Source: a virus
Reading direction: 5' to 3' (one strand)
IMG/VR virus record: IMGVR_UViG_3300037468_000493
Coordinates: 1-64,000 of that record
Length of the DNA: 64,000 nucleotides
The translations under genes and the position numbers were made by a program. Of the stretch, positions 3,035 through 39,777 are shown piece by piece. Within the stretch, counting starts at the first letter, position 1. Each line of letters starts with the position of its first letter. A model generated the notes under the pieces. That model did no database searches and was not told the origin of the DNA. It saw only the letters and a list, made by a program, of their open reading frames with translations.

Positions 3035-3313
3035 ATGCCTACCCCATCCCGCAATGTGCTTAGCTTATCGCTGAGCACAGAAGATCAAACCTTGCTGGTT
3101 GATGTCCTGGCCGAGGCTGGGTTCAGCAAGCCCACCCAGTTTTTGAGGAGTGTCGCCCGTCGCCAGATTGCGATCGGCCCTCCCAATAATGCAGGGTTGC
3201 AGCGGCAGATTAGCGCCCTGGCTGAGCAAGTTGAGATGCAGTCCAACGCCATCGATGAGCTACGCTGCCATGCTGCAGGGCAACCCCCGCGATCGCCCAC
3301 GGATCTACCATGA
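3035..3313 (+). CDS. Ribbon-helix-helix-like regulator with coiled coil, coupled to csf1
   Basis: VLSLSLSTEDQTLL...AGFSKPTQFLRSVARR; ATGA overlap with csf1; likely start ATG 3035. Confidence 0.55.
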   Translation: MPTPSRNVLSLSLSTEDQTLLVDVLAEAGFSKPTQFLRSVARRQIAIGPPNNAGLQRQISALAEQVEMQSNAIDELRCHAAGQPPRSPTDLP

Positions 3314-3975
3314 ACACACCTCAATTATTGTACGCATCTCCCCCCGCTGAAGGTGCGGCGGACGGCCATTGCTCAGTCTGTGGATGGCATGGGCCGACCT
3401 ATGCCAAGGCTCAGGTATTTAGCAAAAGTACCGGGGCCGTGTCGGTGCTGGCGACGGTGCCAACTGATCGCATCTGCGTCCATTGCGCTGCACTGTGGGG
3501 AGAACCTAAAGTTTTTGCCCGTGCAGTACTGGCCACACCGGAAGCAGTACTGTTCCCGACTATCGCCCCCGACCCAGCAGGGCAACGGCCCACCTGGGGG
3601 CAAGCGCTAGCCGCCCTAGACCCTACACGGCCTCGGGTGTGCATCCTCACCACTGACCCCAAAAAACGGGTATGGCCCTTTGCTCAGGTAAGCCAGGGCG
3701 ATCGACTCAGCATGTACGTCCACGACCCTAGCCGGGGCATCTCAGGCAATCGCGTAGTGAGCCTGTCGCTATTGCTGACTACGATCGCTGGTATTGAAGC
3801 CATCTACAATCTAGGTTTTAGCAAAACCGCCATTGAGCGGGGGTTGCTGGATGATTTAAAGCGCGCCAAAGCACTAGGCATCCCCGACACCGTTGCCCAT
3901 GAAAGATACTTGCAAAGTGTCCGTATACTCCCTGAATTTTTGACTTCCCTAATAGTCGCTCAAAAGGATCCCTAG
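3310..3975 (+). CDS. csf1: Type IV CRISPR-associated Csf1 (Cas8-like large subunit)
   Basis: CSVCG and CVHC zinc pairs, KKRVW motif, GFSKTAIERG motif; position in operon. Confidence 0.85.
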   Translation: MNTPQLLYASPPAEGAADGHCSVCGWHGPTYAKAQVFSKSTGAVSVLATVPTDRICVHCAALWGEPKVFARAVLATPEAVLFPTIAPDPAGQRPTWGQALAALDPTRPRVCILTTDPKKRVWPFAQVSQGDRLSMYVHDPSRGISGNRVVSLSLLLTTIAGIEAIYNLGFSKTAIERGLLDDLKRAKALGIPDTVAHERYLQSVRILPEFLTSLIVAQKDP

Positions 3976-3977
3976 TT

Positions 3978-5396
3978 ATGCCTGATCGCATTTTGCTCAA
4001 GCTCACTGCCCTAACCCCTGTAGCCCATGGTGAGGCCGGGGCCAACAGTACGGGGCCGAATAACACGACCCTCTTTAATCGCCAACTCCAGCGGCTCACT
4101 AAAGAAACAGTGGGGGTGGACGTGGAGGTCGCCAGAGACGCCATTGCAAACCTACTGACGGCCATGCCTATCGGTGCCGATACCTTTCCCCTGCTGGAGT
4201 CGCTGAAAGGATCTGAATTGGTGGCAGCTCTATTTGTGGCCCAGGTGCCAATCATGTTCCCCGGAGACGGTGAGGGGCTATTTACTGGAATGGAGCGCTA
4301 CCGAATGTTAAGCACCCGTTTAGCCGATGGGGCCAAGTGCTGCGCCACGTTGCCTGAGTTGTGGAGCTACCTTAGCCGGAAGCTAATGCTCCCCATGTTT
4401 CCCTCTTACGGGTTTGAGGTAATGCGGGCGTTTTTCGTCCTCCCCAAGGCCATTCAGGGGCAATCAATTCAGGCCATTAGCAAAGCCCTGGAACTTACGG
4501 TAATGGCCGCTCGGATGCTGGCAGAGAGCATCAAGGCCGAGCGCAAAAGTGCTAAAGACAATAATCCCAGCCTGTTTGCCGCGCAGGTCTACCAGGCCAG
4601 CCCTGAACAGTTAGCCGACCTCACCCGACCCAAGGCTGAGGCGATCGTAATGCCCGTCCCGAGTATTAGTGGTAACGCCCTGAGACACTGCCTAATCCGT
4701 GAACCCGGCGCAAATCGGCTGATTCAATCCCTAGGACTGGAACCCTACACCGACCGCGATGGGGATCACCTGGGCTTAGGCATCACTCGATTTTTGTACG
4801 GCGGTGGGCAGCTTGCCGCTAAAGCCAAAGCACCCAGCGCCAGTGACATTTACGAAGCCGAGGTTCGCAGCCGTTACCCCATTGTTGATGCCGTGGGTGG
4901 TAGCACTGATTCCTGGTTGATGGCCGAAAGCGCCTGCAAGGTCGCCGGATGGGTAGTCTGCGCAGAAAACAATGTGGCTACCCAATCGATCGCCGGGGTT
5001 GAGTCGAAGGTGAGCATTTTCGATTACCTCAGTGAAGAAACCAAGACCAGAACCGGCATTGGTGGCAAGGACAAAGAATCAGGGCAAATGATTTTCTCTT
5101 ACGAAACCCTAGCCGCTGGGCTACCCCTGATTGTTGAGGTATTGTTCAATCCCTTCACCCAACCCCTGACCATTGGCGCTGTGTGGCAAGCGGTGCATGA
5201 CTGGGCCAATGAAGGAGGCATCGTTGGGGGCCGTTCCCAGATTGGCCATAGCCGATTTGCGTTGGAGGTATTGCAAGGTGCATACGGGCTGGAAGGCAAA
5301 GCCTACCTTGATTACCTAGAGACAGAGCGTGATAATCTACGCCCTGGCTTACTCGATGCCACGATGGGGACTGGGGCAGTGCTATGTGCGGCTTGA
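3978..5396 (+). CDS. csf2: Type IV CRISPR-associated Csf2 (Cas7) with a large helical Cas11-like insertion
   Basis: N-terminal LTALTPVAHG...TLFNRQ; VPSISGNALRH; LYGGG; QMIFSYETLAAG; Gly-rich VGGRSQIGHS loop. At 472 aa it is longer than a typical Csf2. Confidence 0.85.
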   Translation: MPDRILLKLTALTPVAHGEAGANSTGPNNTTLFNRQLQRLTKETVGVDVEVARDAIANLLTAMPIGADTFPLLESLKGSELVAALFVAQVPIMFPGDGEGLFTGMERYRMLSTRLADGAKCCATLPELWSYLSRKLMLPMFPSYGFEVMRAFFVLPKAIQGQSIQAISKALELTVMAARMLAESIKAERKSAKDNNPSLFAAQVYQASPEQLADLTRPKAEAIVMPVPSISGNALRHCLIREPGANRLIQSLGLEPYTDRDGDHLGLGITRFLYGGGQLAAKAKAPSASDIYEAEVRSRYPIVDAVGGSTDSWLMAESACKVAGWVVCAENNVATQSIAGVESKVSIFDYLSEETKTRTGIGGKDKESGQMIFSYETLAAGLPLIVEVLFNPFTQPLTIGAVWQAVHDWANEGGIVGGRSQIGHSRFALEVLQGAYGLEGKAYLDYLETERDNLRPGLLDATMGTGAVLCAA

Positions 5397-6079
5397 TTCA
5401 TAGCCCACGGTTTCGGACTGGTGACCTTGAAGCATGGCGGCGGTTGGAATTAGCAGACCGCCTCTATGCCCAGCGATACCGGGCCAAACTACAGCGCATG
5501 GCCGATGAAGCACAGGCAACCATCGCTGCATTCCTAGAGGATGGCCCCGCCTATTGTTCGGTAAGTTGGGGCAAGGATTCTGTAGTGGTGGCTGACCTTT
5601 GCCGGGGGATGGATTTGCCCATGGGCTACATCAGGATTACGCCCTTCAACAATCCCGACTGTGATTTAGTGCGAGATGCCTTTGCCCCTGAGCACTACCA
5701 CGAGGCGATCGTAGTGCGGCCCGATGATGAAGAATGCTCTCACAGTAGCGGCGTTTTTGATGAAGGCGGGAAACTGCTAGAGGCTGAGTTCGACACCGAT
5801 CGCAGAATCACCGGAATCAGAAAAGATGAATCGCAGTCTAGGCGACTCAGGGGCAGTGCCAACACTAAGCGCAGTTGCGTCCCCATTGCCAAGTGGAGCA
5901 CTCAGGATGTTTTTGCCTATCTTGCACTTCACAATCTGCCCATCCATCCTGCCTACGCAATGAGCAACGGGGGGCAATTCCATCGCAATAATCTACGGGT
6001 TGCGTCAATCGGTGGGGTTCGTGGAACCCAATTTAATCGCCGCGAATGGGAAAACCTTTACTACCCAGAAATCCTATGA
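5384..6079 (+). CDS. cysH: CysH/PAPS-reductase-family protein of type IV-B systems
   Basis: PP-loop SVSWGKDS, GIRKDESQSRR, PIAKWSTQDVFAYL...LPIHPAY. Confidence 0.88.
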   Translation: MCGLIHSPRFRTGDLEAWRRLELADRLYAQRYRAKLQRMADEAQATIAAFLEDGPAYCSVSWGKDSVVVADLCRGMDLPMGYIRITPFNNPDCDLVRDAFAPEHYHEAIVVRPDDEECSHSSGVFDEGGKLLEAEFDTDRRITGIRKDESQSRRLRGSANTKRSCVPIAKWSTQDVFAYLALHNLPIHPAYAMSNGGQFHRNNLRVASIGGVRGTQFNRREWENLYYPEIL

Positions 6080-6771
6080 AAATCATCCACATCCCCGAAC
6101 TAGACGCTATGGGCACTCGCTTTGCATCCCTACCCATGGCCCCATTTTGCCTTACCCTACGCACCCTAAAGCCAGTAGCGGGCAACGACGCTTTGCACCT
6201 AGACGGTCTACTAGCTAAAGCGGTGGTGATTGAGGCCATGCGAGGCAAACCACTGGCCCCGACCGAGGATGCCTATTACATGCCCTTGCCATTGGGGCTA
6301 GAGCGGTTGCACCTGGGCTTACCCGTTTGGCAGTGCAATGATTTTGCCGCCGTTGACGCTGCCGTAGGCCATACCCATTATCACCAGCGCAGCGACTCCA
6401 ACCCTTACGACCCAGCCGCAACCGTAGCCACATTACCCCAGAAGAAACGCCGTAGAATGCCACCCACGACCGAAGGGCAATACATGAGCTACCGTGTCCC
6501 CTTGCAGTACACCGAGGCCGATTGCTGGCAATGCGAAGCCGTGGGCAATGCCGATGAGGTGCTGCGGCTGCTGAATGAGTACATCTCTTCTGTAGGCAAG
6601 AAAGGTAGCCATGGATGGGGGCGTGTATTGTCGTGGGCGGTTGAATCAATCAATCAATTTGAACTTTCGCGCCCAGTCCCCACTGCTGATACCTCACGGC
6701 CCTTCAATGCTCAGATCATGGGGTGGACGCCGCCCTATTGGCATCGCGGTCTATGGCGACTTTGCGGCTAG
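6076..6771 (+). CDS. csf3: Type IV CRISPR-associated Csf3 (Cas5)
   Basis: LHLDGLLA, PLPL, GQYMSYRVP, VGKKGSHGWGRV Gly-rich loop, RPVP, PPYW; ATGA overlap with the cysH stop. Confidence 0.85.
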   Translation: MKIIHIPELDAMGTRFASLPMAPFCLTLRTLKPVAGNDALHLDGLLAKAVVIEAMRGKPLAPTEDAYYMPLPLGLERLHLGLPVWQCNDFAAVDAAVGHTHYHQRSDSNPYDPAATVATLPQKKRRRMPPTTEGQYMSYRVPLQYTEADCWQCEAVGNADEVLRLLNEYISSVGKKGSHGWGRVLSWAVESINQFELSRPVPTADTSRPFNAQIMGWTPPYWHRGLWRLCG

Positions 6772-6834: not shown

Positions 6835-6953
6835 TAGGCAGAGCCTCTGAGGTTCCCGTAGGGAGCCGACACTTCTACTTTGCAGGGTTCCCCTAGCCCC
6901 ACCCCAACAGAAAGCCCCTGATCCAGCGATGGATCAGGGGCTTTCTGTTGGGG
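6835..6953 (+). ncRNA. Candidate small structured RNA downstream of csf3
   Basis: Putative promoter TTGACT(6801)...CAATATT(6823-6829); hairpins AGGCagaGCCT and GGTTCCCgtaGGGAGCC; ends in a 24-bp stem. Confidence 0.4.
6902..6953. terminator. Perfect 24-bp inverted repeat (bidirectional terminator)
   Basis: CCCCAACAGAAAGCCCCTGATCCA-gcga-TGGATCAGGGGCTTTCTGTTGGGG. Confidence 0.75.
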
Positions 6954-7038: not shown

Positions 7039-7614
7039 TTAGTCGGCCTTGAGGATATCAAGTTCCCTGTTCTCTCGCAACCTTGCGCAGTTATATCGAA
7101 ACCTGGCGACATCTTGCTCAGACCAAAGATCGTCCTCAAGCGCTACAGCCATATCCTCGTCGCCGTCGCAAATTTCCATCAGTTCTCCAAAGTCAAGCCG
7201 GATAGTTTCTTCTGTGGACATTGAGGCAAAGTCCGGGAATCCGACAAAAGTTTTTTCTGGATTTAGTCTTGGGTCTTTGTGCCTCGGGATTTGACGGCCA
7301 CGGGAGTAAATCGGGGCGTTGTTCAATGGTGGGCTGTAAAGCGCTATCAGCTCAGACTCTAATCGCTTCAGATCTACCCAAGGCTCAGTGACCAGGTAGG
7401 CCAATTGGATGCCGCCAATGCCAGAAAGGTCACTCCTTCTATGGTGACCGTTCCATCTACGACGAAGGCTTGTACTGGTTATCCCAATATAAAGAACCTG
7501 CCCCCGAAACATGGCGAAGTAAACCCCGGGAGTTTCGGGCAACTGCCCTCGTCGTTCTATTGGGACGGATGGGAGCAAGCTAGGCTCAATCGTCGCTGCC
7601 GTCATCTGGCTCAT
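7039..7614 (-). CDS. GIY-YIG nuclease domain protein
   Basis: PGVYFAM...VLYIGIT..LRRRW..H...LESELIALYSPPLN. Confidence 0.85.
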   Translation of the reverse strand: MSQMTAATIEPSLLPSVPIERRGQLPETPGVYFAMFRGQVLYIGITSTSLRRRWNGHHRRSDLSGIGGIQLAYLVTEPWVDLKRLESELIALYSPPLNNAPIYSRGRQIPRHKDPRLNPEKTFVGFPDFASMSTEETIRLDFGELMEICDGDEDMAVALEDDLWSEQDVARFRYNCARLRENRELDILKAD

Positions 7615-7864
7615 AGTTGTTCTTCTCCAGTGCCTTGCGCTTCCATTCCTCAACCGTCACGCCCTGGCCTTCGGCTAACTCAGCAGCCATCTGATCTATC
7701 TGCTCAGCATTGGCTTCTACCCTGGCCTGCACCACGTTCTGCCACATTCCGGCAATCGTCTGGCCTTTGGCCTCAGCCCACCAAATAAACCGCTTCATGT
7801 GCCACGCAGGCAGCCGTACAGAGTATCGCTTCATGTTTCGCCGGGGTGACATCGCTAATCTCAT
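7586..7864 (-). CDS. Putative ribbon-helix-helix regulator divergent from the ATPase module
   Basis: KRYSVRLPAWHMKRFIWWAEAKGQTIAGM pattern. Confidence 0.5.
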   Translation of the reverse strand: MRLAMSPRRNMKRYSVRLPAWHMKRFIWWAEAKGQTIAGMWQNVVQARVEANAEQIDQMAAELAEGQGVTVEEWKRKALEKNNYEPDDGSDD

Positions 7865-7988
7865 AACACCACCAAAAGTGTATGGGCTAAGTCGATTCTA
7901 GTCTATTTTGCTGGACAGGTGTTGCATAGGTGCATCACAGTGTGCTACAACAGTCTCATGAAAGCCCGATGAAAGGTCATGAAAGGTC

Positions 7989-8339
7989 GTGAAAACTTTT
8001 ACAGCCCCTCCAACAATCGCCAGAAGCACCGCACTGCGGCAGCTTTCGGCTATTCGGTATCCAGGGGGCATGAAAACAATCTCGATTCCGACCATGTGGC
8101 GCTGGTGCAAACTAGCGGGCATTGAATCAGGCCTTAGGGAGTTCACGGAGTCTCAGTGTTTTCGCCTTGCCCAAATCGCCCAATGGCTGCGGCAGGGGCA
8201 TTCAGTCGAACAAATCCAACTATTTCTAGGAGTGCAGACCAATGACACAAGCAACCGAACGCAACAACAGCAGCAATCCCAGCCGGGGGCAGGGGTTTGG
8301 GGGGCAGACAGCAACCCCTGGGGCGCATTCTGGGGCTAG
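7989..8339 (+). CDS. MerR/excisionase-like HTH protein
   Basis: ISIPTMWRWCKLAGI...REFTESQCFRLAQIAQWLRQGHSVEQI. Confidence 0.6.
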   Translation: MKTFTAPPTIARSTALRQLSAIRYPGGMKTISIPTMWRWCKLAGIESGLREFTESQCFRLAQIAQWLRQGHSVEQIQLFLGVQTNDTSNRTQQQQQSQPGAGVWGADSNPWGAFWG

Positions 8340-8679
8340 TCCTCAGGCCCAGGTAGCTGTCGAGATATCGCAGCTACGAGATCAGGTAAATCAGTCTCTA
8401 GGCGGTGCCACGGCAAGCATTAGCGCGATCGTGGATGAGTACCAAAAACAGGCCCAACCCCTTGCGGATGAGGCCTCCACACTGATTTACGACATGCTCA
8501 GCAACCGCACATTCTTCAACCAGGTTGGGCGCAATGTGGCCCAACTAATGACTCAGCACCCCATGGGTGCTCGGCATGAATTGGGAAAGCCGACATTGAA
8601 GCGCTTGTCGTTCGAGCCCTTGAAACCGGGGACTCAACAGAGCTACTTAACCAGTGCCGTAGACACAACGGAGGGTTAG
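8242..8679 (+). CDS. Hypothetical helical protein
   Basis: AGGAG RBS; in operon. Confidence 0.6.
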   Translation: MTQATERNNSSNPSRGQGFGGQTATPGAHSGASPQAQVAVEISQLRDQVNQSLGGATASISAIVDEYQKQAQPLADEASTLIYDMLSNRTFFNQVGRNVAQLMTQHPMGARHELGKPTLKRLSFEPLKPGTQQSYLTSAVDTTEG

Positions 8680-8697
8680 TTCTAGCCCTGTTAGATG

Positions 8698-8887
8698 CTT
8701 TGACACACCCTTTGACAAAGGCTTTGACACACTCCCATTTTCTGAACCCTGTCAAAGCCTTTGTAAATCTGTCAAACGACCATATATCAACAGTTCAGAG
8801 CTTTGGCTATTCTTCTGAATCTGAAGCTTTGAAACCTGTTCAAAGCCCCCTAGGGCACCTTCTCCCCGTTCAAAAAAGTTGTCAAAA
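8698..8887. repeat. Cluster of 8-bp CTTTGACA direct and inverted repeats
   Basis: CTTTGACA at 8698, 8710 and 8722 (12-bp period); TGTCAAA at 8750, 8770 and 8880; variants at 8827, 8838 and 8868. Confidence 0.75.
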
Positions 8888-8891
8888 ACCA

Positions 8892-9407
8892 ATGACCTTT
8901 ATCTCTGCCCCCTCACGATTCTGGCCCCGAATGAGTGTCCTAGGTGCCCTTGGCCTATTGGCTCTAGTGGGCTTTGCTGGGGCCGTCAACACGGTGGGGG
9001 TGTGGAACGGGAGTAAGGCTGAAGAATTAGCCCAGTCCGCCGAGATGGCCGATGCAGTGGCCGCAATTAAGGCGAAGGAAGCTGAGGTTAAGGCCCAGAC
9101 TGATCTAGCTGCCAGCTACTCAGAACTAGGGCTGGCCCAGGCTACTTGCGCGGACACCTTGGCTCAGTTCTATTTCCAGCCGGGGGTGTCTCTGGCCCAG
9201 CAGTTGCAACAATGGGGGTTTGACTTTGGGGCACCTCGCTACAACGCAGACCAATGGGTGCCGCTATTTGATAGCGCTGGGCTGTTGTCCGGAGCCGTGC
9301 GTCGTGATCCTGCGACGGGGCATCAAGTTTTTGTCCAGGCCGACGAACAGACGCTAGATCAGGCTGCAATCTGTAATTCCAATCAGCTTACGAAGGAGAC
9401 CCTATGA
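8892..9407 (+). CDS. Single-TM membrane protein with coiled coil
   Basis: Hydrophobic VLGALGLLALVGFAGAV segment; likely start ATG 8892, after the repeat cluster. Confidence 0.6.
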   Translation: MTFISAPSRFWPRMSVLGALGLLALVGFAGAVNTVGVWNGSKAEELAQSAEMADAVAAIKAKEAEVKAQTDLAASYSELGLAQATCADTLAQFYFQPGVSLAQQLQQWGFDFGAPRYNADQWVPLFDSAGLLSGAVRRDPATGHQVFVQADEQTLDQAAICNSNQLTKETL

Positions 9408-10168
9408 CTATGAAATCAGCAGCACCTAGACCTATTGGGGCACATATCCTATCGCCCTTTGAGTGGGGGGCCAAGTCTGTAGCTTGGTTAACTAACCCTG
9501 CAAAGAAGGGAGGATTTCGGTTTATCGCCTATGGCTTTGCCGTGGGCTGTATGTTGATTCAGGTTGAAACGATTTACTCAGGCATGGACCAGAGCCCAGC
9601 GGCTCAGCATGCTGGGGTAGAGAACCCGAAAGTGCTGCCTAAGCCGGGTTTCCCTGATGGGGCCAACATTGGATATTTGATGCCTCCGTTTTGGAACCCC
9701 ATCAAAAGCACCATCAACTTTGCCACATCGTGGCTACCATTCCGCACTGAGTTCAAGCCCGTTTATCGGTTCTCTGTATGGGGCGACCCCAACTGGTATG
9801 TCGCTTGGCTGATTGGTCTTTCCATTGGCGGCATTGAGGCCATGGCCATTCGCAAGATTGGCGACTGGGGGCAAAAGATGTCCAAGTTCCAGAAGCTAAA
9901 TGGGCGTGTAATTCCAGACCTGAATCCTCAAGCGATCGCCGCTACCAAACTGGCCAAAATTGAGCTTCAGGCTGATGGCCTGGGTGATTACTTGTGGATG
10001 GCAATATTAATCGTCACGGTTTACGGGATTGAATTTTACGCCTTTGTTCGTAGCGTGACTGGGTTGCAGATGCCCATGTTCACCCTGGTTGTCTATGCCC
10101 TGATCAACGTGTTTGGGTTTGAGGCGTTTTGGTCACTGGCTGATCGCGCTGGCGAAGAAAAAGAGTAA
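9404..10168 (+). CDS. Polytopic membrane protein (about 4 TM)
   Basis: Several hydrophobic segments; ATGA coupling; AAGGAG RBS. Confidence 0.7.
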   Translation: MTMKSAAPRPIGAHILSPFEWGAKSVAWLTNPAKKGGFRFIAYGFAVGCMLIQVETIYSGMDQSPAAQHAGVENPKVLPKPGFPDGANIGYLMPPFWNPIKSTINFATSWLPFRTEFKPVYRFSVWGDPNWYVAWLIGLSIGGIEAMAIRKIGDWGQKMSKFQKLNGRVIPDLNPQAIAATKLAKIELQADGLGDYLWMAILIVTVYGIEFYAFVRSVTGLQMPMFTLVVYALINVFGFEAFWSLADRAGEEKE

Positions 10169-10177
10169 AGGTATCCC

Positions 10178-12058
10178 ATGGAAAGCATCATCTACAGCGA
10201 CACCTACAACGCCTTGCTCGACTACCATACCCACCTTGATAGCGAGGCTCAGCAGTCACAGGCGTTCACTGGCCTGTATAAGCTCACCAGCCTGGTGGGC
10301 CTGAGCCTGGGAGGGATGACATTGGCCACCCTCACTGGTTGGGGTGCGTTGGTGGTAGCTGGTGCTGGGCTGGGGTATATCGGTACTCTGATCTCAGAGG
10401 GCCGTAAGACCGGGAAGGTAATGCCACTGCCGTTCATCCCTGTGGGCCTTGATGCTGTAGCCCGTGGCGTGGCTCAGGTAGGGGGTGGCGATGATTCCGA
10501 TGAGGTGATCCCTTACCACTACTTGAGCAGCCACCAAAAAAGCGATTACGCTTTGCTGTCTGTGCTGCTGCCTGAGATTGCAGTGGCCCTTGACGAATTG
10601 CCCACCAATACCGCTAAGAAGGTGGCGTGGTCGCGCATGTCCCGGCGATTCCATCAGCACTATTCCAGGCACATTAAAGACAATCCAGACCTGATCGCCA
10701 TGGGTGCAGACCGGGATAAGTTGGCTCAGTTGGTTTTAGCCACCCCTGACGAATTGCGGCAAATTGCCATGCAGCCTACGGCCACGGCATTGCCAGCCGT
10801 GGAACCGCCCCCCGCCATTGGCCCTACCACCCAACTCACTGCGGTAGATGTTGCAGCGGTAGCTGTAGAGCCTGACCCATGGGTGAGCACTCCAGAACCG
10901 TCCATGCCTGTGGAAGTCTACGCAGCCCAGGTGCCTGTGGTTAAACAGCCGCTAGCCGCTACCCTGTCGGTAGCCAAGACGGCTCTAGAGCAGATTAAAC
11001 AGTCACCCTATAAGTCGAGGATTTTCTTTGGGGCACAACGATCGGGTAAGTCGATGCTGGTTGCCATTGCCTCAAAGCAATTGGCCGATCGGGGCGTGAA
11101 AGTCTACCACCTTAACCTGCTGAGCTATGCCAAGGATGGCCTAGACGAAGATGCCAAGTACACCCAGCACTGCGTCAAGTCGGTGCGCGGCGACATCTCA
11201 AAGATGAGTGACCAAGAAGTTACTTGGCTCGTGACCCAGTCGATCGCCCTGGTGAATGAATGGTGGGCACAGGATAACGCGATCCTGATTGTTGATGAAT
11301 GGGCCTACCTAGCTGCTAAAGATTGCCAATTTGCTTTGATGATTCAGCCATTGGTGGGGCTTATTGCAGGGAAGATGTCAGCACTCAACAGCAGCGGCAT
11401 GAAGCGTACTCTAGCGGTGTGGGCCGTCGCACCCAAGATGGTGGCTGGCAACCTCACTGAAAGCGGCAAGTCCATCAAGTCGATGGAGTGTGTCTACGTC
11501 ACCGTGCCCCCGGCTCAGACCGTAGATTGGCAGGGTCAAGGCGTTGGTTTTGACGAGCAGTTGTTCGACCAGGTCAGCAATAACTACGCCATCACCCGGC
11601 CTACTATTTCTGATTCGGCTAGCAGCCGGATTGCATTTGTCGGCGATCGCTGGCTGCCCCTAGGCACTACTCCAGACATGCTGGATGAGCCCTTAGCCCA
11701 CCCTCGCCAACTTGCTATTCCTACCATGCCCCAGTGCGCTGTAGCCGTAGCCGAGCCCCTGGTGCAGTCTGCCCCTATTTCGTTGTTTGATGAGCCTCGC
11801 TACCCAGAAATCAAGGCACTAATTCCTAAGTGCGATGAGGTTACGGCGGGGATCTTGAAATGGTTGGTCAAGCTGGGCAACGGAGCCAAGGTTACCACGT
11901 CAATCGCGGCGGTGGATGCTTGGGTTAAGACTGCCATTCGCCTGGGCAAAATCTCCAATGCCCAAGCCGAAAGCATTACCCCATTCTTGGCAAGACTTGA
12001 GGCCCTGAAGTACCTGGAATCTACTGGCGATAAAGCGTGGATTGTCAGACTGCGCTAA
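10178..12058 (+). CDS. Membrane-anchored P-loop ATPase (FtsK/HerA/TraB-like) with C-terminal winged-helix-like domain
   Basis: N-terminal TM hairpin, Pro/Ala linker, Walker A GAQRSGKS, Walker B ILIVDE, C-terminal ITPFLARLEALKYLESTGDKAWIV. Confidence 0.7.
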   Translation: MESIIYSDTYNALLDYHTHLDSEAQQSQAFTGLYKLTSLVGLSLGGMTLATLTGWGALVVAGAGLGYIGTLISEGRKTGKVMPLPFIPVGLDAVARGVAQVGGGDDSDEVIPYHYLSSHQKSDYALLSVLLPEIAVALDELPTNTAKKVAWSRMSRRFHQHYSRHIKDNPDLIAMGADRDKLAQLVLATPDELRQIAMQPTATALPAVEPPPAIGPTTQLTAVDVAAVAVEPDPWVSTPEPSMPVEVYAAQVPVVKQPLAATLSVAKTALEQIKQSPYKSRIFFGAQRSGKSMLVAIASKQLADRGVKVYHLNLLSYAKDGLDEDAKYTQHCVKSVRGDISKMSDQEVTWLVTQSIALVNEWWAQDNAILIVDEWAYLAAKDCQFALMIQPLVGLIAGKMSALNSSGMKRTLAVWAVAPKMVAGNLTESGKSIKSMECVYVTVPPAQTVDWQGQGVGFDEQLFDQVSNNYAITRPTISDSASSRIAFVGDRWLPLGTTPDMLDEPLAHPRQLAIPTMPQCAVAVAEPLVQSAPISLFDEPRYPEIKALIPKCDEVTAGILKWLVKLGNGAKVTTSIAAVDAWVKTAIRLGKISNAQAESITPFLARLEALKYLESTGDKAWIVRLR

Positions 12059-12136
12059 TCAACACCCAGTACTCTACGGGGTTCTGGCTGGTGGTTCGCT
12101 GCCGAGGTATTCAGATGTATTTACAGGAGGCACCTA

Positions 12137-12508
12137 ATGACTTACCGAAAATTCCCAAAATACGATGCACGAAAATACGCCTGCGCATTTTTTCCATTTC
12201 TCCAGGCGCGGCATATCCATCACACTATCTACAAAGGGCCAGAACGGCTGTACTGGGATATGTTGCCATTGTCGGTGCCTGCCCACTGGCTGATCCACGG
12301 TGTTGCTGGGGGCGTGCTCACGATGCCCAAGGCGGTGACTCGCCAGAACTGGATCGCCCGCCGGTTGCCCCTGACTTGGTTTTGGAAGTACCCCAACCCC
12401 ATGCAACGCCTACTTCATGCATGGTGCAGGGTTCCGGGGTTCCTAAGGATTGCTGGGATTCTGCTGGGGCTGTGGGTCTACATTGCGCCAGGATCGCTAG
12501 GGCTTTGA
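12137..12508 (+). CDS. Hypothetical membrane-anchored protein, possibly a degenerate HNH
   Basis: HIHHTIY...PLSVPAHWLIH; C-terminal TM; AGGAGG RBS. Confidence 0.5.
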   Translation: MTYRKFPKYDARKYACAFFPFLQARHIHHTIYKGPERLYWDMLPLSVPAHWLIHGVAGGVLTMPKAVTRQNWIARRLPLTWFWKYPNPMQRLLHAWCRVPGFLRIAGILLGLWVYIAPGSLGL

Positions 12509-12525
12509 CCCCACACCACCCTAAC

Positions 12526-12559
12526 AAAAAGCCCCCCGGTATCCACGCCGGGGGGCTTT
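12526..12559. terminator. Bidirectional intrinsic terminator
   Basis: AAAAAGCCCCCCGG...CCGGGGGGCTTT. Confidence 0.75.
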
Positions 12560-35757: not shown

Positions 35758-36056
35758 CCCCTATCTGGCGAGTCCGGCAAATGGTATCGACGCTGATTGA
35801 GCAAGACGAACTAAAGGCCAGGGCTGGCAGCTATGCGATCGCCCGATTTGCCCTGACTCAAATCAGCCGCAAGGGCACCAAGATATCCATTGAAGACTTC
35901 ATGCCCTACAGCGATCCCAACGCCGCGCAGAAGCAGGGTGAAGGTATCCCGGCAAAGACCGTGGCAATCATGCGGCAATTGGTCAAGGGGCGAGCGTTAC
36001 CAGCACGGGTGGAGGCGGCAGCAATACGGGCATTAGGAGGAATGGGCGATGGCTGA
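35619..36056 (+). CDS. Tail assembly chaperone GT frameshift extension
   Basis: FSRAQRILSECRTACDREREFWDKCYFRIQSAG...MVSTLIEQ...DFMPY. Confidence 0.7.
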   Translation, partial: FSRAQRILSECRTACDREREFWDKCYFRIQSAGVQDPCYHWQEIGLTPIWRVRQMVSTLIEQDELKARAGSYAIARFALTQISRKGTKISIEDFMPYSDPNAAQKQGEGIPAKTVAIMRQLVKGRALPARVEAAAIRALGGMGDG

Positions 36057-39000
36057 CTTAGGAGAATTAGTCCTCAGGCTTAGGGTTGATGACAGTCAGT
36101 ACGCCCGAGACCTACTCAGGGCCAAGGCCCAGGCTGCTGCGCTCAAAGATATCCGGGTTGGCCTCCGGGTTGACAATAGCCAGTACACCCGAGACCTACT
36201 CAAAGCCAGGGCAGAAGCTCAGTCGCTCAAAGATATCCGGGTTGGTCTACAGCTTGACAGCAGCCAATACACCCGCGACTTACTCAGCGCCAGGGCACAG
36301 GCTGAAGCGCTCAAAGATATCCGGGTTAATCTCCGGGCTGATGGACTGGGGGGCGTTGATGCTGGCCTACAGAGAGTCGGAACCAGTACCCGTGATGTGA
36401 GGACATCGTTCTCTGTCTTGCAGGGGGCGATCCAGGGCGCAGCCCAGGCCATCACCCAAAGCCTGATTCAGATCGGCGGGTCATTGCTAAAGCTCCCTCT
36501 CAACATTGTGGGTGGGTCGCTTAACAGCTTTGCAGAATTAGAGACAGAGTTGGTAAACTTAGGCGCAAAGACTACCCTGGGCAGAGAGGGCATACAACCC
36601 ATCGCTGATGAAATCCAGAGGCTTGGCCAAGAATCAACAAAAACATCAGTAGAAGTCGCCCAGGCCGCAAATACTTTATCTCAGCTAGGCGTAGCGCCTG
36701 ATGAGATTCAAAAGCAACTTGCAGGGGTGGTGAAACTATCTGAAGCTACAGGGGCAGGCTTGGTGGAGGCCGCTAAGCTTAGTACAGGTGCCGCTAAGAC
36801 TTTTGGATTTTCAGCTGACGAAATCGCCGATCGATTGGCATCTTTAGCTATTGACACCGCTGCGGATGTTGGAGACGTTCAACAGCTTTTACAACAAACT
36901 AGCGGTATTTTTAATCAGTTAGGAGATTCAGCAGATCCCGACGAACTATTAGCTTTTTTTGCTACACTCATCGATGCAAACATAAACCCAGAAGTGGCGG
37001 CTACAGGTTTAAGGTCAGTAATTGAAACATTAGTAGACCCCAAAAAAGCTGACGAATTAAAAGAGCTAGGAGTTGACGCATTCGACGCAACAGGAAATTT
37101 CCTAGGGTTTGACACTGTACTCAGGCAATTGGCAGCAACGCAAAAAACCTTGAACCCTCAAGATTTCACAGGTAAACTTCTTAGCGCTTTTGGGGCTGGA
37201 GGTATTTCAGCAATTACAGGAGGACTAGGCGGTTTAGATAAAAACTTTAATAAAACACTTGATGGACTAGAAAACTCTACTGGCAAAACTGATGTAATTA
37301 AAGAAGAGCTACAAAAAGGACTTCCAGCCGCTATAGAACAATTTGGCGGATCCCTGAACACGCTTGATGTTGCATTTGGCGCATCAATCGCCCCCATTCA
37401 AGAAGGGATATTACGACTAGGGACAACGTTGCTTAATACCTTAAGCAAGTCCGACATTTTTGATCAGCTTACTACCGCGTCAAATGGTTTCTTTAAGGCA
37501 CTGCAAAGCAATGAAGGGTTTGTTGCAGAGCTAGGCAAAACCCTCGTTTCCACATTTGGATCAGTCCTTAACGCCATTGCATCCGTCGTCACTCGAATCA
37601 CAAACGAATTTATAGCTAACCCTGAAGAGATCCTGGCCCGTGTTCAAGGTTTTGTGACTCAAGCTGGAGTCGTGATCACCAACGCCATTCTTGGGGCCGG
37701 TGCTGCCTTTCAGTTTATCGTCCAAAACTTTGATGAAATCGTCGCCGGGGTGCAGGCCCTGGGGGTTGTCATTGCCGCCGCGCTGGCAGGCAATGTCATT
37801 GCCGGGGTAGTCTCGTTTGGGGCGACCCTAGTCAGCATTGCCTCCACCGTCCTCCCGGTTGTCATCGGCGCATTTACCGCGCTATCAGGCACCGTCTCCG
37901 GGCTACTGCTGGCATTCCAGGCGGGGGGCATCGCCGGGGTAGTGTCTAGCCTTGGCGCTACCTTCTCCCTGTTCGCGGCATCGTTGGCCCCGCTACTGCC
38001 CATCATTGCCGCCGTGGCTGGGGCGATCGCATTAATCGTCGTCGCGTTCAAGGCATTGCGGTCGGAGCGGGGCCAGGAAGTTCTAAGTGCGATCGGGGCC
38101 ACGGCCAAAGAATTGTTTGACTCATTCCGCAATAGTGAACCCGTGAAGGCGTTCTTAAATCTGCTGGATTCAATCAGGGATCTGGGAGTTGCGCTCATCC
38201 CAGTTATCCAAAATGTAGTCGGGGAAATGATTCGATTTGGCGGCGTTGGGATTGAAAATATAAAGTCAGCTTTTGCCTCAACGGGAATTAGCGTCAATGA
38301 TATTTATAAAACATTTTTACTCTTAAATCCTGTTTTTGCCGGTGCAATTGCCCTTTCCAAAACATTGCTTTCAATCGTTACTGACATTCTCAATCAGACC
38401 GCCACTGTCATTGACAACCTCACCGCTGCTATCAGTGGGCCGAAGACACTTGAAGTATCAGGAGTCGATGGGCTAGGCGACTCGCTGAGGGAGGGGGCCA
38501 ATGCTCTAGGGACAGCAGGGAAAAACATAGCGGATGTCGCCAAGCCCCCCGCAGCAACCCCCGCAGCAACCCCCGCAGAACCTCCCGCTGGCCCCACCCG
38601 TGACCTTGCTGCTGAGCAAAAAGCTGCCGCCGATGCCCTTGCCGCTGCTGAGCAAAAAGCTGCCGCCGATGCCCTTGCCGCTGCTGAGAAAAAGGCCGAG
38701 GACGACAAGAACGCCCGACAGACCGCCTTTGACAATGCCCGCATTGCCCGTGACATCGCCGCCGAAGATGCCAAACTAGCCCGTCAACAAGCCTTCGAGG
38801 ATACCAAACGCGCCAATGCCCTTGCCTTAGAATCTGAGATTGAAAGCCGCAAGATAGCGACCGAGCAGGCGATCGAGGCCATCAAAGAAGAGGGCCGCCG
38901 CCGGGAGGAAGAATTTAACGCCCGCCAAAATGCTGACAAGCTAGCCTTCGAGGATGACCTGGCTAAGCGTAAAAACGCCGCTGAGCGCCAGTTTGCCCTA

Positions 39001-39777
39001 GACGAAGCTGAAACACTGGACGAGCGGAACAAGCTGGTTGAGGGCTTCGCCGCCGAAGATCGCAAGGCCGCTGTTCTGGCCCCCTTCGAGCAAGAACAGC
39101 GAGACTTTGAGGCACAGCAGTTAGAAGATAAGCGCATCTTTGAAGAACAGCAACGCGCCCTTGATGCCGAAGCTGAAGAACTTAAGCGCCAGTCTGAGCT
39201 AGAAATCAACGCCCTCAACCTTGAAGCCAAAAATCAAGAGATTGCCCTAGAGCGTGACTTCCAAAACAATGAACGCACCCTTGATCGCCAAGCCAAAGAA
39301 CAGGAGCGGGCTAGGGAGGCATCTTTTAACGCCACCGAGCGCAGGCTAGATGAAGAATCTGCCCGAAGGATTGAGGCGCTCAAGTCCGGCAACGACGCCG
39401 CCGCCGTCACTGCCTTCCGTCGGGGTGGCACCTTCGCCGCTGGCCAAAACATTCTCGCTGGGGAGGCTGGCCCAGAACTGCTCAAAGTCGGCGGTAAGCA
39501 AGCCCTGGTCACCGAACCCAGCCTCATGCGCTTTGACTCCCCTGGCCGCGTCACTTCCGCACCCTCCACCCGGCGCAAGCTATCCCAGGGGCAACTAGCC
39601 AGGGCAGGGGCTGGGGGTGAGCTCAAGGCCATGCGCAAGGCTCTGGAGCGATCGCTAGCTAGGCCCCCCGCCGACATCAACACCACAGTCCAGGTGCAAG
39701 GGCTCAGTGCCGATCAGGTACGGCGACAATTGGCTATGCACCAGTCCGACTTATACCGCAGCCTAGGGGGCCTCTGA
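36049..39777 (+). CDS. Tape measure protein
   Basis: 1242 aa; MADLGELVLRL; TP901-like core (IQRLGQESTKTSVEVAQA, AATGLRSV..L..P); coiled coil; AGEAGPEL. Confidence 0.92.
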   Translation: MADLGELVLRLRVDDSQYARDLLRAKAQAAALKDIRVGLRVDNSQYTRDLLKARAEAQSLKDIRVGLQLDSSQYTRDLLSARAQAEALKDIRVNLRADGLGGVDAGLQRVGTSTRDVRTSFSVLQGAIQGAAQAITQSLIQIGGSLLKLPLNIVGGSLNSFAELETELVNLGAKTTLGREGIQPIADEIQRLGQESTKTSVEVAQAANTLSQLGVAPDEIQKQLAGVVKLSEATGAGLVEAAKLSTGAAKTFGFSADEIADRLASLAIDTAADVGDVQQLLQQTSGIFNQLGDSADPDELLAFFATLIDANINPEVAATGLRSVIETLVDPKKADELKELGVDAFDATGNFLGFDTVLRQLAATQKTLNPQDFTGKLLSAFGAGGISAITGGLGGLDKNFNKTLDGLENSTGKTDVIKEELQKGLPAAIEQFGGSLNTLDVAFGASIAPIQEGILRLGTTLLNTLSKSDIFDQLTTASNGFFKALQSNEGFVAELGKTLVSTFGSVLNAIASVVTRITNEFIANPEEILARVQGFVTQAGVVITNAILGAGAAFQFIVQNFDEIVAGVQALGVVIAAALAGNVIAGVVSFGATLVSIASTVLPVVIGAFTALSGTVSGLLLAFQAGGIAGVVSSLGATFSLFAASLAPLLPIIAAVAGAIALIVVAFKALRSERGQEVLSAIGATAKELFDSFRNSEPVKAFLNLLDSIRDLGVALIPVIQNVVGEMIRFGGVGIENIKSAFASTGISVNDIYKTFLLLNPVFAGAIALSKTLLSIVTDILNQTATVIDNLTAAISGPKTLEVSGVDGLGDSLREGANALGTAGKNIADVAKPPAATPAATPAEPPAGPTRDLAAEQKAAADALAAAEQKAAADALAAAEKKAEDDKNARQTAFDNARIARDIAAEDAKLARQQAFEDTKRANALALESEIESRKIATEQAIEAIKEEGRRREEEFNARQNADKLAFEDDLAKRKNAAERQFALDEAETLDERNKLVEGFAAEDRKAAVLAPFEQEQRDFEAQQLEDKRIFEEQQRALDAEAEELKRQSELEINALNLEAKNQEIALERDFQNNERTLDRQAKEQERAREASFNATERRLDEESARRIEALKSGNDAAAVTAFRRGGTFAAGQNILAGEAGPELLKVGGKQALVTEPSLMRFDSPGRVTSAPSTRRKLSQGQLARAGAGGELKAMRKALERSLARPPADINTTVQVQGLSADQVRRQLAMHQSDLYRSLGGL

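What the first reader, a model, noticed from the sequence alone, without database searches (positions are those of the whole stretch)
7586..12508. TraB/FtsK-like DNA-transfer module in a phage: possible cell-to-cell spread along filaments
Seen: a divergent RHH-like regulator, a MerR/Xis-like HTH, two membrane proteins and a 626-aa protein with TM anchor, P-loop ATPase and C-terminal winged-helix-like domain, all bounded by terminators. Known: Streptomyces plasmids move dsDNA with a single FtsK-like TraB (TM-ATPase-wHTH) plus Spd membrane proteins and a Kor regulator. Inference: an analogous system could move the phage or plasmid-prophage genome between cells of a filamentous cyanobacterium without virions.
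Basis: inference. Interest (0 to 1): 0.75.

Follow-up and report, generated by a model that had tools for sequence, protein, structure and literature searches.

The report
Phage-borne TraB-like DNA pump module
A tailed cyanophage carries a membrane operon, otherwise found mostly on cyanobacterial plasmid-like elements, built around a DNA-pump-type ATPase whose DNA-reading tail matches a nearby array of short repeats; this layout is known so far only from the one-protein plasmid-transfer systems of Streptomyces.

Summary
The window is a 79.7-kb tailed cyanophage. At 8892-12058 it encodes a 1-TM protein, a 4-TM protein and a 626-aa protein with a TM hairpin, a P-loop core and a C-terminal winged helix.

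New here: the phmmer search found 239 cluster representatives. About 30 fetched loci carry the operon (small soluble protein, 1-TM protein, polytopic protein, TM-ATPase). They are rich in the cyanobacterial HIP1 octamer, and several also carry ParM-like, primase-helicase or relaxase genes.

In 19 of 26 loci, 5-9 copies of a locus-specific 7-mer, in two opposed blocks, lie right at the ATPase stop codon. In the phage clade the array (TTTGACA, 8694-8890) lies inside the operon.

The motif tracks the ATPase C-terminal domain, not its core and not the neighbouring proteins. This is the TraB/clt and FtsK/KOPS logic.

The molecular reading (a sequence-directed membrane DNA translocase) is well supported. 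Spread of DNA between cells of a filament is untested. An origin/iteron reading or a segregation role is not excluded.

I found no paper describing this in cyanobacteria.

The parts
7586..7864 (-). 92-aa RHH-like protein, divergent from the operon
   Evidence: RHH_5 E 0.0034, below the Pfam cut-off. Not detected by tblastn (E <= 1e-3) in L001 or L014, so it is probably not a core part.
7989..8339 (+). MerR/Xis-like HTH protein, first gene of the phage-type operon
   Evidence: MerR_1 E 0.034. Conserved at 83% identity in L001 and 65% in L014.
8242..8679 (+). 145-aa soluble protein of unknown family
   Evidence: Conserved in L001 (57%) and L014 (94%). Only sub-threshold Pfam matches.
8694..8890 (.). 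Repeat array: three TTTGACA at a 12-bp period, then three TGTCAAA in the opposite orientation, plus variants
   Evidence: CTTTGACA occurs 7 times in the window against 1.9 expected, and 4 of the 7 lie here. The array is conserved in L014; a TTGAC(A/G) cluster sits at the same place in L001.
8892..9407 (+). 171-aa protein with one N-terminal TM helix
   Evidence: Hydropathy. ORF cluster c10 is shared with L001 and L014. Other loci carry 1-TM proteins in the same operon position that are not detectably similar in sequence.
9404..10168 (+). 254-aa polytopic (4-TM) protein, translationally coupled upstream of the ATPase
   Evidence: Homologues lie immediately upstream of the ATPase in distant loci L034, L036-L039 and L045.
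10178..12058 (+). 626-aa ATPase: TM hairpin (residues 36-73), helical linker, FtsK-HerA-type core (about 265-505), winged helix (about 545-626)
10970..11692 (+). ATPase core domain
11795..12055 (+). C-terminal winged-helix domain, proposed reader of the repeat array
12137..12508 (+). 123-aa ORF, not conserved; membership doubtful
   Evidence: No homologue in related loci.
12528..12559 (.). 12-bp perfect GC-rich hairpin between convergent genes; likely right-hand transcript end

Best explanation
The module is a sequence-directed, membrane-anchored double-stranded-DNA translocase system of the TraB/FtsK kind. It is a mobile-element backbone module of cyanobacteria, found mostly on plasmid-like elements, and it has been taken up by at least two lineages of tailed phages.

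Proposed mechanism (inferred):
1. The 626-aa protein inserts in the cytoplasmic membrane by its N-terminal hairpin.
2. It assembles, like other FtsK-HerA pumps, into a ring.
3. It loads on the element's own DNA, because its C-terminal winged helices bind the array of 7-8-bp repeats (TTTGACA at 8694-8890).
4. It pumps that DNA through a membrane passage formed with the 4-TM and 1-TM proteins encoded just upstream.

Shown here: the fold class, the domain order, the conserved operon, the presence and position of the arrays, and the co-variation of motif and C-terminal domain.

Inferred: ring formation, DNA binding, pumping, and the biological outcome. The likeliest outcome is transfer or spread of the element's DNA between adjacent cells without virions.

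For: 2. Architecture. TM hairpin, core, then a C-terminal winged helix. This is the order seen in FtsK, SpoIIIE and TraB.

3. Conserved operon. Across about 30 loci the order is: small soluble protein, 1-TM protein, 3-5-TM protein of about 250 aa, TM-ATPase.

4. Arrays. In 19 of 26 loci the densest non-HIP1 7-mer cluster (5-9 copies, two opposed blocks, 9-13-bp spacing) starts at the ATPase stop codon. Chance expectation is 1.3 loci, P about 6e-21, though the loci are not all independent. In the phage clade the same kind of array lies upstream of the 1-TM gene.

5. Specificity.
- Among 25 pairs with cores at least 89% identical, all 8 with C-termini at least 89% identical share the motif. All 17 with C-termini at most 71% identical have different motifs.
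- Distant cores (45-51% identity) with related C-termini have the same or a one-base-different motif: L024/L034 both TGACCCA; L020/L041 TGCTACA and CGCTACA.
- The neighbouring proteins do not track the motif. L021 and L024 share c1 at 96%, c4 at 93% and c3 at 97% identity but have different motifs.

6. Context. Separate ParM-like and primase-helicase genes lie on the same elements. A MOBP relaxase lies nearby on Leptolyngbya plasmid2, with a homologue in L021.

7. Known biology. TraB binds 8-bp repeats in clt through its C-terminus and works with translationally coupled Spd membrane proteins. SpdB2 has four TM helices, and SpdB2 homologues occur on actinophages (PMC4447253).
Against: - No sequence-level membership in FtsK_SpoIIIE, TraB, VirD4 or VirB4 families.
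- The sensor motif is IAP rather than the TQxP of FtsK (sequence).
- The arrays are dyad-like (two opposed blocks), whereas the paper read here (PMC4447253) describes the clt repeats as direct repeats.
- AT-rich stretches (GC 0.17-0.30) follow many arrays, as at replication origins.
- Co-variation of a winged helix with adjacent repeats is equally expected for Rep/iteron or centromere systems.
- Five or six loci show no array near the gene.
- No experiment shows DNA binding, pumping or transfer.
- The phage makes virions, so a need for a second route of spread is not evident.
Confidence: 0.5

Rival explanations
1. Vertical segregation pump. The same sequence-directed translocase works like FtsK or SpoIIIE. 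It clears or pumps copies of the element across closing septa so that both daughter cells of a filament inherit it. The array serves as loading or orienting site, and there is no horizontal transfer.
For: Same fold, domain order and array evidence as the main reading. FtsK and SpoIIIE use winged-helix gamma domains to read 8-bp KOPS/SRS (established knowledge). The operon often sits beside ParM-like partition genes.
Against: The elements already carry a ParM-type partition system. The motif is confined to one local array, not spread with polarity along the genome: outside the array there are 5 forward and 1 reverse TTTGACA in 64 kb. Dedicated polytopic partner proteins are not needed by FtsK.
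Confidence: 0.15
2. Replication or maintenance module. The array is an iteron-type origin, with an AT-rich unwinding element beside it. The ATPase is a membrane-tethered initiator or loader whose winged helix binds the iterons, as Orc1/Cdc6 binds ORB repeats or Rep binds iterons. In the integrase-less phage it would support a plasmid-prophage state.
For: Opposed repeat blocks next to the gene, with motif and winged helix co-varying. AT-rich 40-mers lie 110-250 bp after many arrays. The nearest structures to the C-terminal domain in the ESM Atlas search include RepL. No tyrosine or serine recombinase was found in the 79.7-kb genome.
Against: The core groups with FtsK-HerA pumps, none of which is a known initiator (established knowledge). 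The N-terminal TM hairpin and two co-operonic integral membrane proteins have no role in initiation. Primase-helicase genes are present separately on plasmid-like loci and in the phage. No DnaA boxes were found near the arrays.
Confidence: 0.13
3. Coupling protein or VirB4-like ATPase of a minimal, relaxase-dependent single-strand conjugation system specific to cyanobacteria.
Against: No relaxase was seen near the module in the phage loci or in most other loci. No second ATPase or recognisable T4SS parts lie in the operon. Coupling proteins are not known to carry a sequence-specific winged helix with a cognate repeat array.
Confidence: 0.1
4. Conflict function: a membrane ATPase system for superinfection exclusion or anti-phage/anti-plasmid defence. 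It sits in an accessory region next to a type IV-B CRISPR-Cas-like operon, a GIY-YIG nuclease and MazG.
For: Neighbours are accessory or conflict genes. HerA-type ATPases occur in several defence systems. A divergent allele, P0016, weakly matches PADLOC mad8/HerA models.
Against: The window's own proteins match no PADLOC model. An array that matches the element's own ATPase argues for self-recognition of the element's DNA. The operon is a stable backbone feature of plasmid-like loci.
Confidence: 0.07

Closest known systems
Streptomyces TraB with clt and Spd proteins (pSVH1, pIJ101, pJV1)
   Same: A membrane-anchored FtsK-type motor with a C-terminal DNA-recognition domain. A cluster of about 8-bp repeats lies beside the gene and is specific to each element. 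Small membrane proteins, including a 4-TM one, are encoded in a translationally coupled operon. The system is carried by plasmids of filamentous bacteria, and Spd homologues are seen on phages (PMC4447253).
   Different: There is no detectable sequence homology; the core is shorter (about 240 aa) and a separate clade. The arrays form two opposed blocks. There is no GntR Kil-Kor regulator. The host is a Gram-negative-type cyanobacterium with an outer membrane and septal junctions. Some loci also carry relaxases.
FtsK/KOPS and SpoIIIE/SRS chromosome pumps
   Different: The motif is one local array, not a polar genome-wide signal. The module is element-encoded and has dedicated membrane partners. 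No FtsK_SpoIIIE Pfam match.
TcpA, the FtsK-like coupling protein of Clostridium pCW3
   Different: TcpA works with a relaxase and a full Tcp secretion apparatus. No winged helix with cognate array is known for it.
TdtA of Thermus thermophilus ICEth1 (transjugation)
   Same: A mobile-element-encoded, membrane-bound, hexameric HerA/FtsK-type ATPase that pushes double-stranded DNA out of donor cells (PMC5365140).
   Different: TdtA is paired with a NurA nuclease and has no sequence-specific loading site. It transfers any chromosomal DNA.
VirB4 of type IV secretion systems
   Different: VirB4 is about 800 aa with a large N-terminal domain and no DNA-binding winged helix, and it always comes with many T4SS genes. 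None of these is present here.

Membership tests
FtsK-HerA superfamily of pumping ATPases | RecA-like ASCE core with Walker A lysine and Walker B acidic pair | tested here: met
   K291 and E374 are invariant and D373 nearly invariant across 107-136 family members.
FtsK-HerA superfamily of pumping ATPases | The three-dimensional core is closest to known members | tested here: met
FtsK-HerA superfamily of pumping ATPases | Match to a curated sequence model of a member family (FtsK_SpoIIIE, VirB4, T4SS-DNA_transf, HerA) | tested here: not met
   No Pfam, NCBIfam, PHROG or PDB sequence match. Only sub-threshold generic P-loop hits.
TraB-type conjugative dsDNA translocases | N-terminal membrane anchor | tested here: met
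   Two adjacent hydrophobic helices at residues 36-73. Homologues also show 1-2 TM helices. This is prediction only.
TraB-type conjugative dsDNA translocases | C-terminal winged-helix DNA-recognition domain | tested here: met
TraB-type conjugative dsDNA translocases | Cognate array of about 8-bp repeats (clt) beside the gene, specific to each element | tested here: met
   Arrays in 19 of 26 loci and in the phage clade. The motif co-varies with the C-terminal domain only. Physical binding was not tested.
TraB-type conjugative dsDNA translocases | Sequence homology to the FtsK_SpoIIIE motor | tested here: not met
   No match.
TraB-type conjugative dsDNA translocases | Hexameric pore; ATP-driven transfer of unprocessed double-stranded plasmid DNA | not testable with these tools
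   Needs biochemistry and mating assays.
TraB-type conjugative dsDNA translocases | GntR-type TraR repressor forming a Kil-Kor pair | tested here: not met
   No GntR gene. The RHH-like and MerR-like matches are weak, and the RHH gene was not detected in related phage loci.
Type IV coupling proteins (VirD4/TrwB/TcpA) | Genetic linkage to a relaxase and a VirB4-based secretion system | tested here: inconclusive
   A relaxase lies within 10 kb in L004 and L021 only. No VirB4 or other T4SS gene was recognised near the module. None was seen in the phage ORFs scanned.
Iteron- or ORB-binding replication initiators | Initiator fold (AAA+ Orc/DnaA type, or winged-helix-only Rep) with repeats flanking an AT-rich unwinding element | tested here: inconclusive
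   Repeats with nearby AT-rich DNA are present. However, the ATPase fold is FtsK-HerA rather than AAA+, and the protein is membrane-anchored.

The most novel reading that the evidence does not exclude
Cyanobacteria have their own TraB-like, relaxase-independent system that moves double-stranded mobile-element DNA from cell to cell. Tailed phages have captured it, so a phage genome (or its plasmid form) can spread along a trichome without making virions. This would be a second, virion-free route of viral transmission in a multicellular bacterium.
Probability: 0.25. Interest if true: 0.9.

Novelty: new variant of a known kind. Interest (0 to 1): 0.72.

Why it matters
Conjugation by a single FtsK-like pump that reads a repeat array is so far known as a peculiarity of mycelial actinomycetes. 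Finding the same logic in filamentous cyanobacteria would have several consequences:

- It would suggest that multicellular, septate growth repeatedly selects for such pumps. The logic here is a membrane anchor, a pump-type motor, an exchangeable DNA-reading domain and a matching array, built from proteins with no detectable sequence similarity to the Streptomyces ones.
- It would give a first handle on how cyanobacterial plasmids typed only as 'mobilizable' might move.
- It raises the testable idea that a tailed phage can spread without virions.
- The natural set of motif and winged-helix pairs (at least 13 motifs) is a ready-made specificity code for experiments and for tools in cyanobacterial genetics.

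Tried and rejected
Searches that found nothing:
- Pfam, PHROGs, NCBIfam and PADLOC on the ATPase and its partners gave nothing above threshold.
- Sequence and profile searches of the PDB, with the protein, with family alignment A2 and with alleles P0004 and P0016, gave no significant match.
- The Foldseek PDB search gave only generic RecA/KaiC-level matches (TM 0.4-0.45) and could not separate the clades. VIA-align did separate them.
- tblastn against 50,697 phage records found no match.
- In IMG/VR, pattern scans found only two further contigs. Allele P0004 was not found there.
- The search for longer, fused forms found none.
- The ESM Atlas look-up for the 4-TM protein gave no usable lead.
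- This phage's large terminase has no match in the Nodosilinea genome, so that prophage belongs to a different phage lineage.

Tools that failed or gave no answer:
- The full-length model was poor (pLDDT 54).
- Complex prediction of the ATPase N-terminus with the 4-TM protein gave no verdict.
- One Pfam call on A2 exceeded the size limit.

My own error:
- My first coordinates for the 1-TM gene (8894) were out of frame. The start is 8892. The tblastn rows for 'TM1_8894' should be ignored.

Readings rejected:
- Packaging ATPase: the phage has a normal large terminase.
- ParA-type partition ATPase: the fold is wrong and the protein has a TM anchor.


Full report
**What the window is**

PHROG matches identify a tape-measure protein (36049-39777), a major head protein, a portal and a large terminase. 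The record is an IMG/VR virus of 79,753 bp with direct terminal repeats. The cyanobacterial HIP1 octamer GCGATCGC occurs 35 times against 1.4 expected, so the host is a cyanobacterium. No tyrosine or serine recombinase was found in the genome. The finding lies in an accessory or early region. On one side is a csf1-csf2-cysH-csf3-like operon. On the other are a MazG gene and an XRE regulator.

**The observation**

The ORFs are there. The RHH-like and MerR-like assignments rest on sub-threshold Pfam matches.

The gene annotated from 8700 most likely starts at ATG 8892. The 190 bp before it are a repeat array, not coding sequence. It encodes a 171-aa protein with one TM helix.

The next gene (9404-10168) overlaps its stop and encodes a protein with four hydrophobic helices.

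The 626-aa protein has these parts:
- A Gly-rich hydrophobic hairpin at residues 36-73.
- A conserved helical linker.
- A P-loop core with K291, D373 and E374; K291 and E374 are invariant and D373 nearly so.
- A C-terminal domain of about 80 residues.

Strong hairpins lie at 6902-6953 and 12528-12559. The simple terminator scan does not call them.

**What the ATPase is**

It matches no curated sequence family and no PDB sequence, even as a profile.

An exhaustive phmmer search found 239 cluster representatives. They share residues about 265-505.

|---|---|
| VirB4 4ag5 | 15.6 (rmsd 3.5, 205 aligned) |
| HerA | 14.0 |
| TcpA | 13.4 |
| EccC | 12.6 |
| FtsK | 12.3 |
| DndH-C, EssC, STIV2 B204 | 12.2, 11.9, 11.9 |

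The C-terminal domain resembles winged-helix DNA-binding domains in two models:
- The ESM Atlas's own model: RepL, DpnI_C, DprA-WH, AbiEi and DUF4194, TM 0.53-0.65.

So the domain order TM - linker - pump motor - winged helix is real. It is the order of FtsK, SpoIIIE and TraB.

**Where the family lives**

- It is rare in isolate genomes: 4 of 401 sampled cyanobacterial genomes had a match.
- It was not found among 50,697 phage records.
- In IMG/VR the pattern scans found it only on this record and two other contigs.
- One of those two is the prophage of Nodosilinea sp. FACHB-131. That prophage has a different head gene and no match to this phage's terminase, so it is a second phage lineage.
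- Thirty metagenome loci, a Phormidium MAG and Leptolyngbya NIES-3755 plasmid2 carry more distant members. A further member is annotated in a Phormidesmis MAG.
- Nearly all loci are strongly enriched in HIP1.
- All four named hosts are thin filamentous cyanobacteria. Four names are too few for a firm link with filamentous growth.

**The conserved operon**

ORF clustering across the loci gives one recurring order:
1. A soluble protein of about 114 aa.
2. A 1-TM protein of 130-185 aa.
3. A polytopic protein of about 250 aa with 3-5 TM helices.
4. The TM-ATPase.

Neighbours include an actin-like ParM-type protein and a DUF3854/D5_N primase-helicase. On the Leptolyngbya plasmid there are a MOBP relaxase and an SF1 helicase, with homologues in L021 and L025. 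These elements therefore already have recognisable partition and replication genes. The phage version keeps the two membrane proteins and the ATPase. In place of the 114-aa protein it has the MerR-like protein and orf8242.

**The repeat arrays**

I looked in every locus for the densest cluster of any 7-mer.

- In 19 of 26 loci the top non-HIP1 cluster begins at the ATPase stop codon. Chance expectation is 1.3 loci, P about 6e-21. Several loci are near-duplicates, but at least 12 different motifs are involved.
- Each array has 5-9 copies in two opposed blocks at 9-13-bp spacing. The first copy often contains the stop codon itself.
- Five or six loci have no array there.
- In the phage clade the same kind of array lies 3.3 kb upstream, between orf8242 and the 1-TM gene: three TTTGACA, then three TGTCAAA.
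- CTTTGACA occurs 7 times in the window against 1.9 expected, and 4 of the 7 lie in the array.
- Outside the array the motif is not enriched or polar. It is a local site, not a KOPS-like genome signal.

**Which protein reads the array**

The motif follows the ATPase C-terminal domain and nothing else.

- Twenty-five ATPase pairs have cores at least 89% identical. The 8 pairs with C-termini at least 89% identical share the motif. The 17 pairs with C-termini at most 71% identical differ in motif. Examples:

| Pair | Core identity | C-terminus | Motifs |
|---|---|---|---|
| L020 / L021 | 95% | unrelated | TGCTACA / GTCCCTA |
| L034 / L038 | 97% | 65% | TGACCCA / TGACACA |

- Conversely, L024 and L034 (core 51%) share a related C-terminus and the identical motif. 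L020 and L041 (core 45%) have motifs one base apart.
- The soluble, 1-TM and polytopic proteins can be 93-97% identical between loci with different motifs. They can also be only 37% identical between loci with the same motif.
- Alleles P0004, P0005, P0007 and P0010 keep this phage's N- and C-termini almost unchanged but carry a core that is only a remote homologue.

**Interpretation**

A membrane-anchored pump-type motor has an exchangeable sequence reader and a cognate array on its own element. It is encoded with small and polytopic membrane proteins in a coupled operon. This is the design of Streptomyces TraB/clt/Spd (PMC4447253). There TraB's C-terminus recognises 8-bp repeats in clt. The 4-TM protein SpdB2 forms pores and binds TraB. 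SpdB2 homologues on actinophages were already suspected to help phage DNA spread. TdtA of Thermus is another element-borne pump of this superfamily that pushes DNA out of cells (PMC5365140).

I therefore rate a sequence-directed membrane DNA translocase as the best reading. Transfer or spread between neighbouring cells is its most likely purpose.

**Limits**

- Membership in the TraB family fails on sequence. What is supported is 'works like', not 'is a'.
- Co-variation of a winged helix with adjacent repeats is also the signature of Rep/iteron and centromere systems.
- AT-rich DNA follows many arrays.
- The phage lacks an integrase, which would fit a plasmid-maintenance role.
- Against the origin reading stand the pump fold, the TM hairpin, the membrane partners and the separate replication genes.
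- A segregation role (FtsK-like), a relaxase-coupled role and a conflict role remain possible. They are scored as rivals.
- No defence model matches the window's proteins.
- A complex prediction for the 4-TM protein and the ATPase N-terminus gave no verdict.

**Novelty**

Three full-text searches found no description of such a system in cyanobacteria or cyanophages. An earlier AI note of this scan (e1-5357467) reached a similar Tra/clt-like reading for a prophage in another genome.

Noticed in passing
window 3310-6771: A csf1-csf2-cysH-csf3-like (type IV-B CRISPR-Cas-like) operon lies just upstream. Csf3 TIGR03116 E 2.3e-10, below that model's curated cut-off; a PAPS-reductase domain in the third gene; a weak Csf1 match. 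The operon is conserved in related phage contig L014 but absent from the Nodosilinea prophage.
   Followed up: partly
window 7039-7653 (-): A GIY-YIG-like protein (sub-threshold Pfam match). It has homologues beside the ATPase operon on three plasmid-like loci (L027, L032, L045), so it may travel with the module.
   Followed up: partly
proteins P0004, P0005, P0007, P0010 (metagenome alleles of window 10178-12058): These alleles have N- and C-termini almost identical to the window protein, but their ATPase core is only remotely homologous and carries a classical TQSP sensor motif. The motor cassette has been exchanged between near-identical phages.
   Followed up: partly
whole window and L048 (G000 63001-79753): No tyrosine or serine recombinase was found in a 79.7-kb genome with terminal repeats. 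Its replication-type genes are a RecD/PIF1-like helicase, a D5_N primase-helicase and an SNF2 helicase, plus two DNA methylases. The phage may be lytic or kept as a plasmid.
   Followed up: partly
window, genome-wide: The cyanobacterial HIP1 octamer GCGATCGC occurs 35 times against 1.4 expected. It is similarly enriched in nearly all related loci.
   Followed up: yes
window 6902-6953: A perfect 24-bp inverted repeat with a 4-nt loop lies between the csf3-like gene and the convergent GIY-YIG gene. It is a likely bidirectional terminator, or possibly a structured RNA.
   Followed up: no
L004 12867-16082 (Leptolyngbya NIES-3755 plasmid2): A 1071-aa DUF499 protein lies directly downstream of the distant ATPase homologue. 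A subtilase and an AAA ATPase lie further on. Their role is unknown.
   Followed up: no
window 7989-8339 and 8242-8679: The MerR-like ORF overlaps the next gene by about 98 nt, both here and in L001. Only the first 90 residues of the MerR-like protein are conserved, so its low-complexity tail is probably read-through.
   Followed up: no
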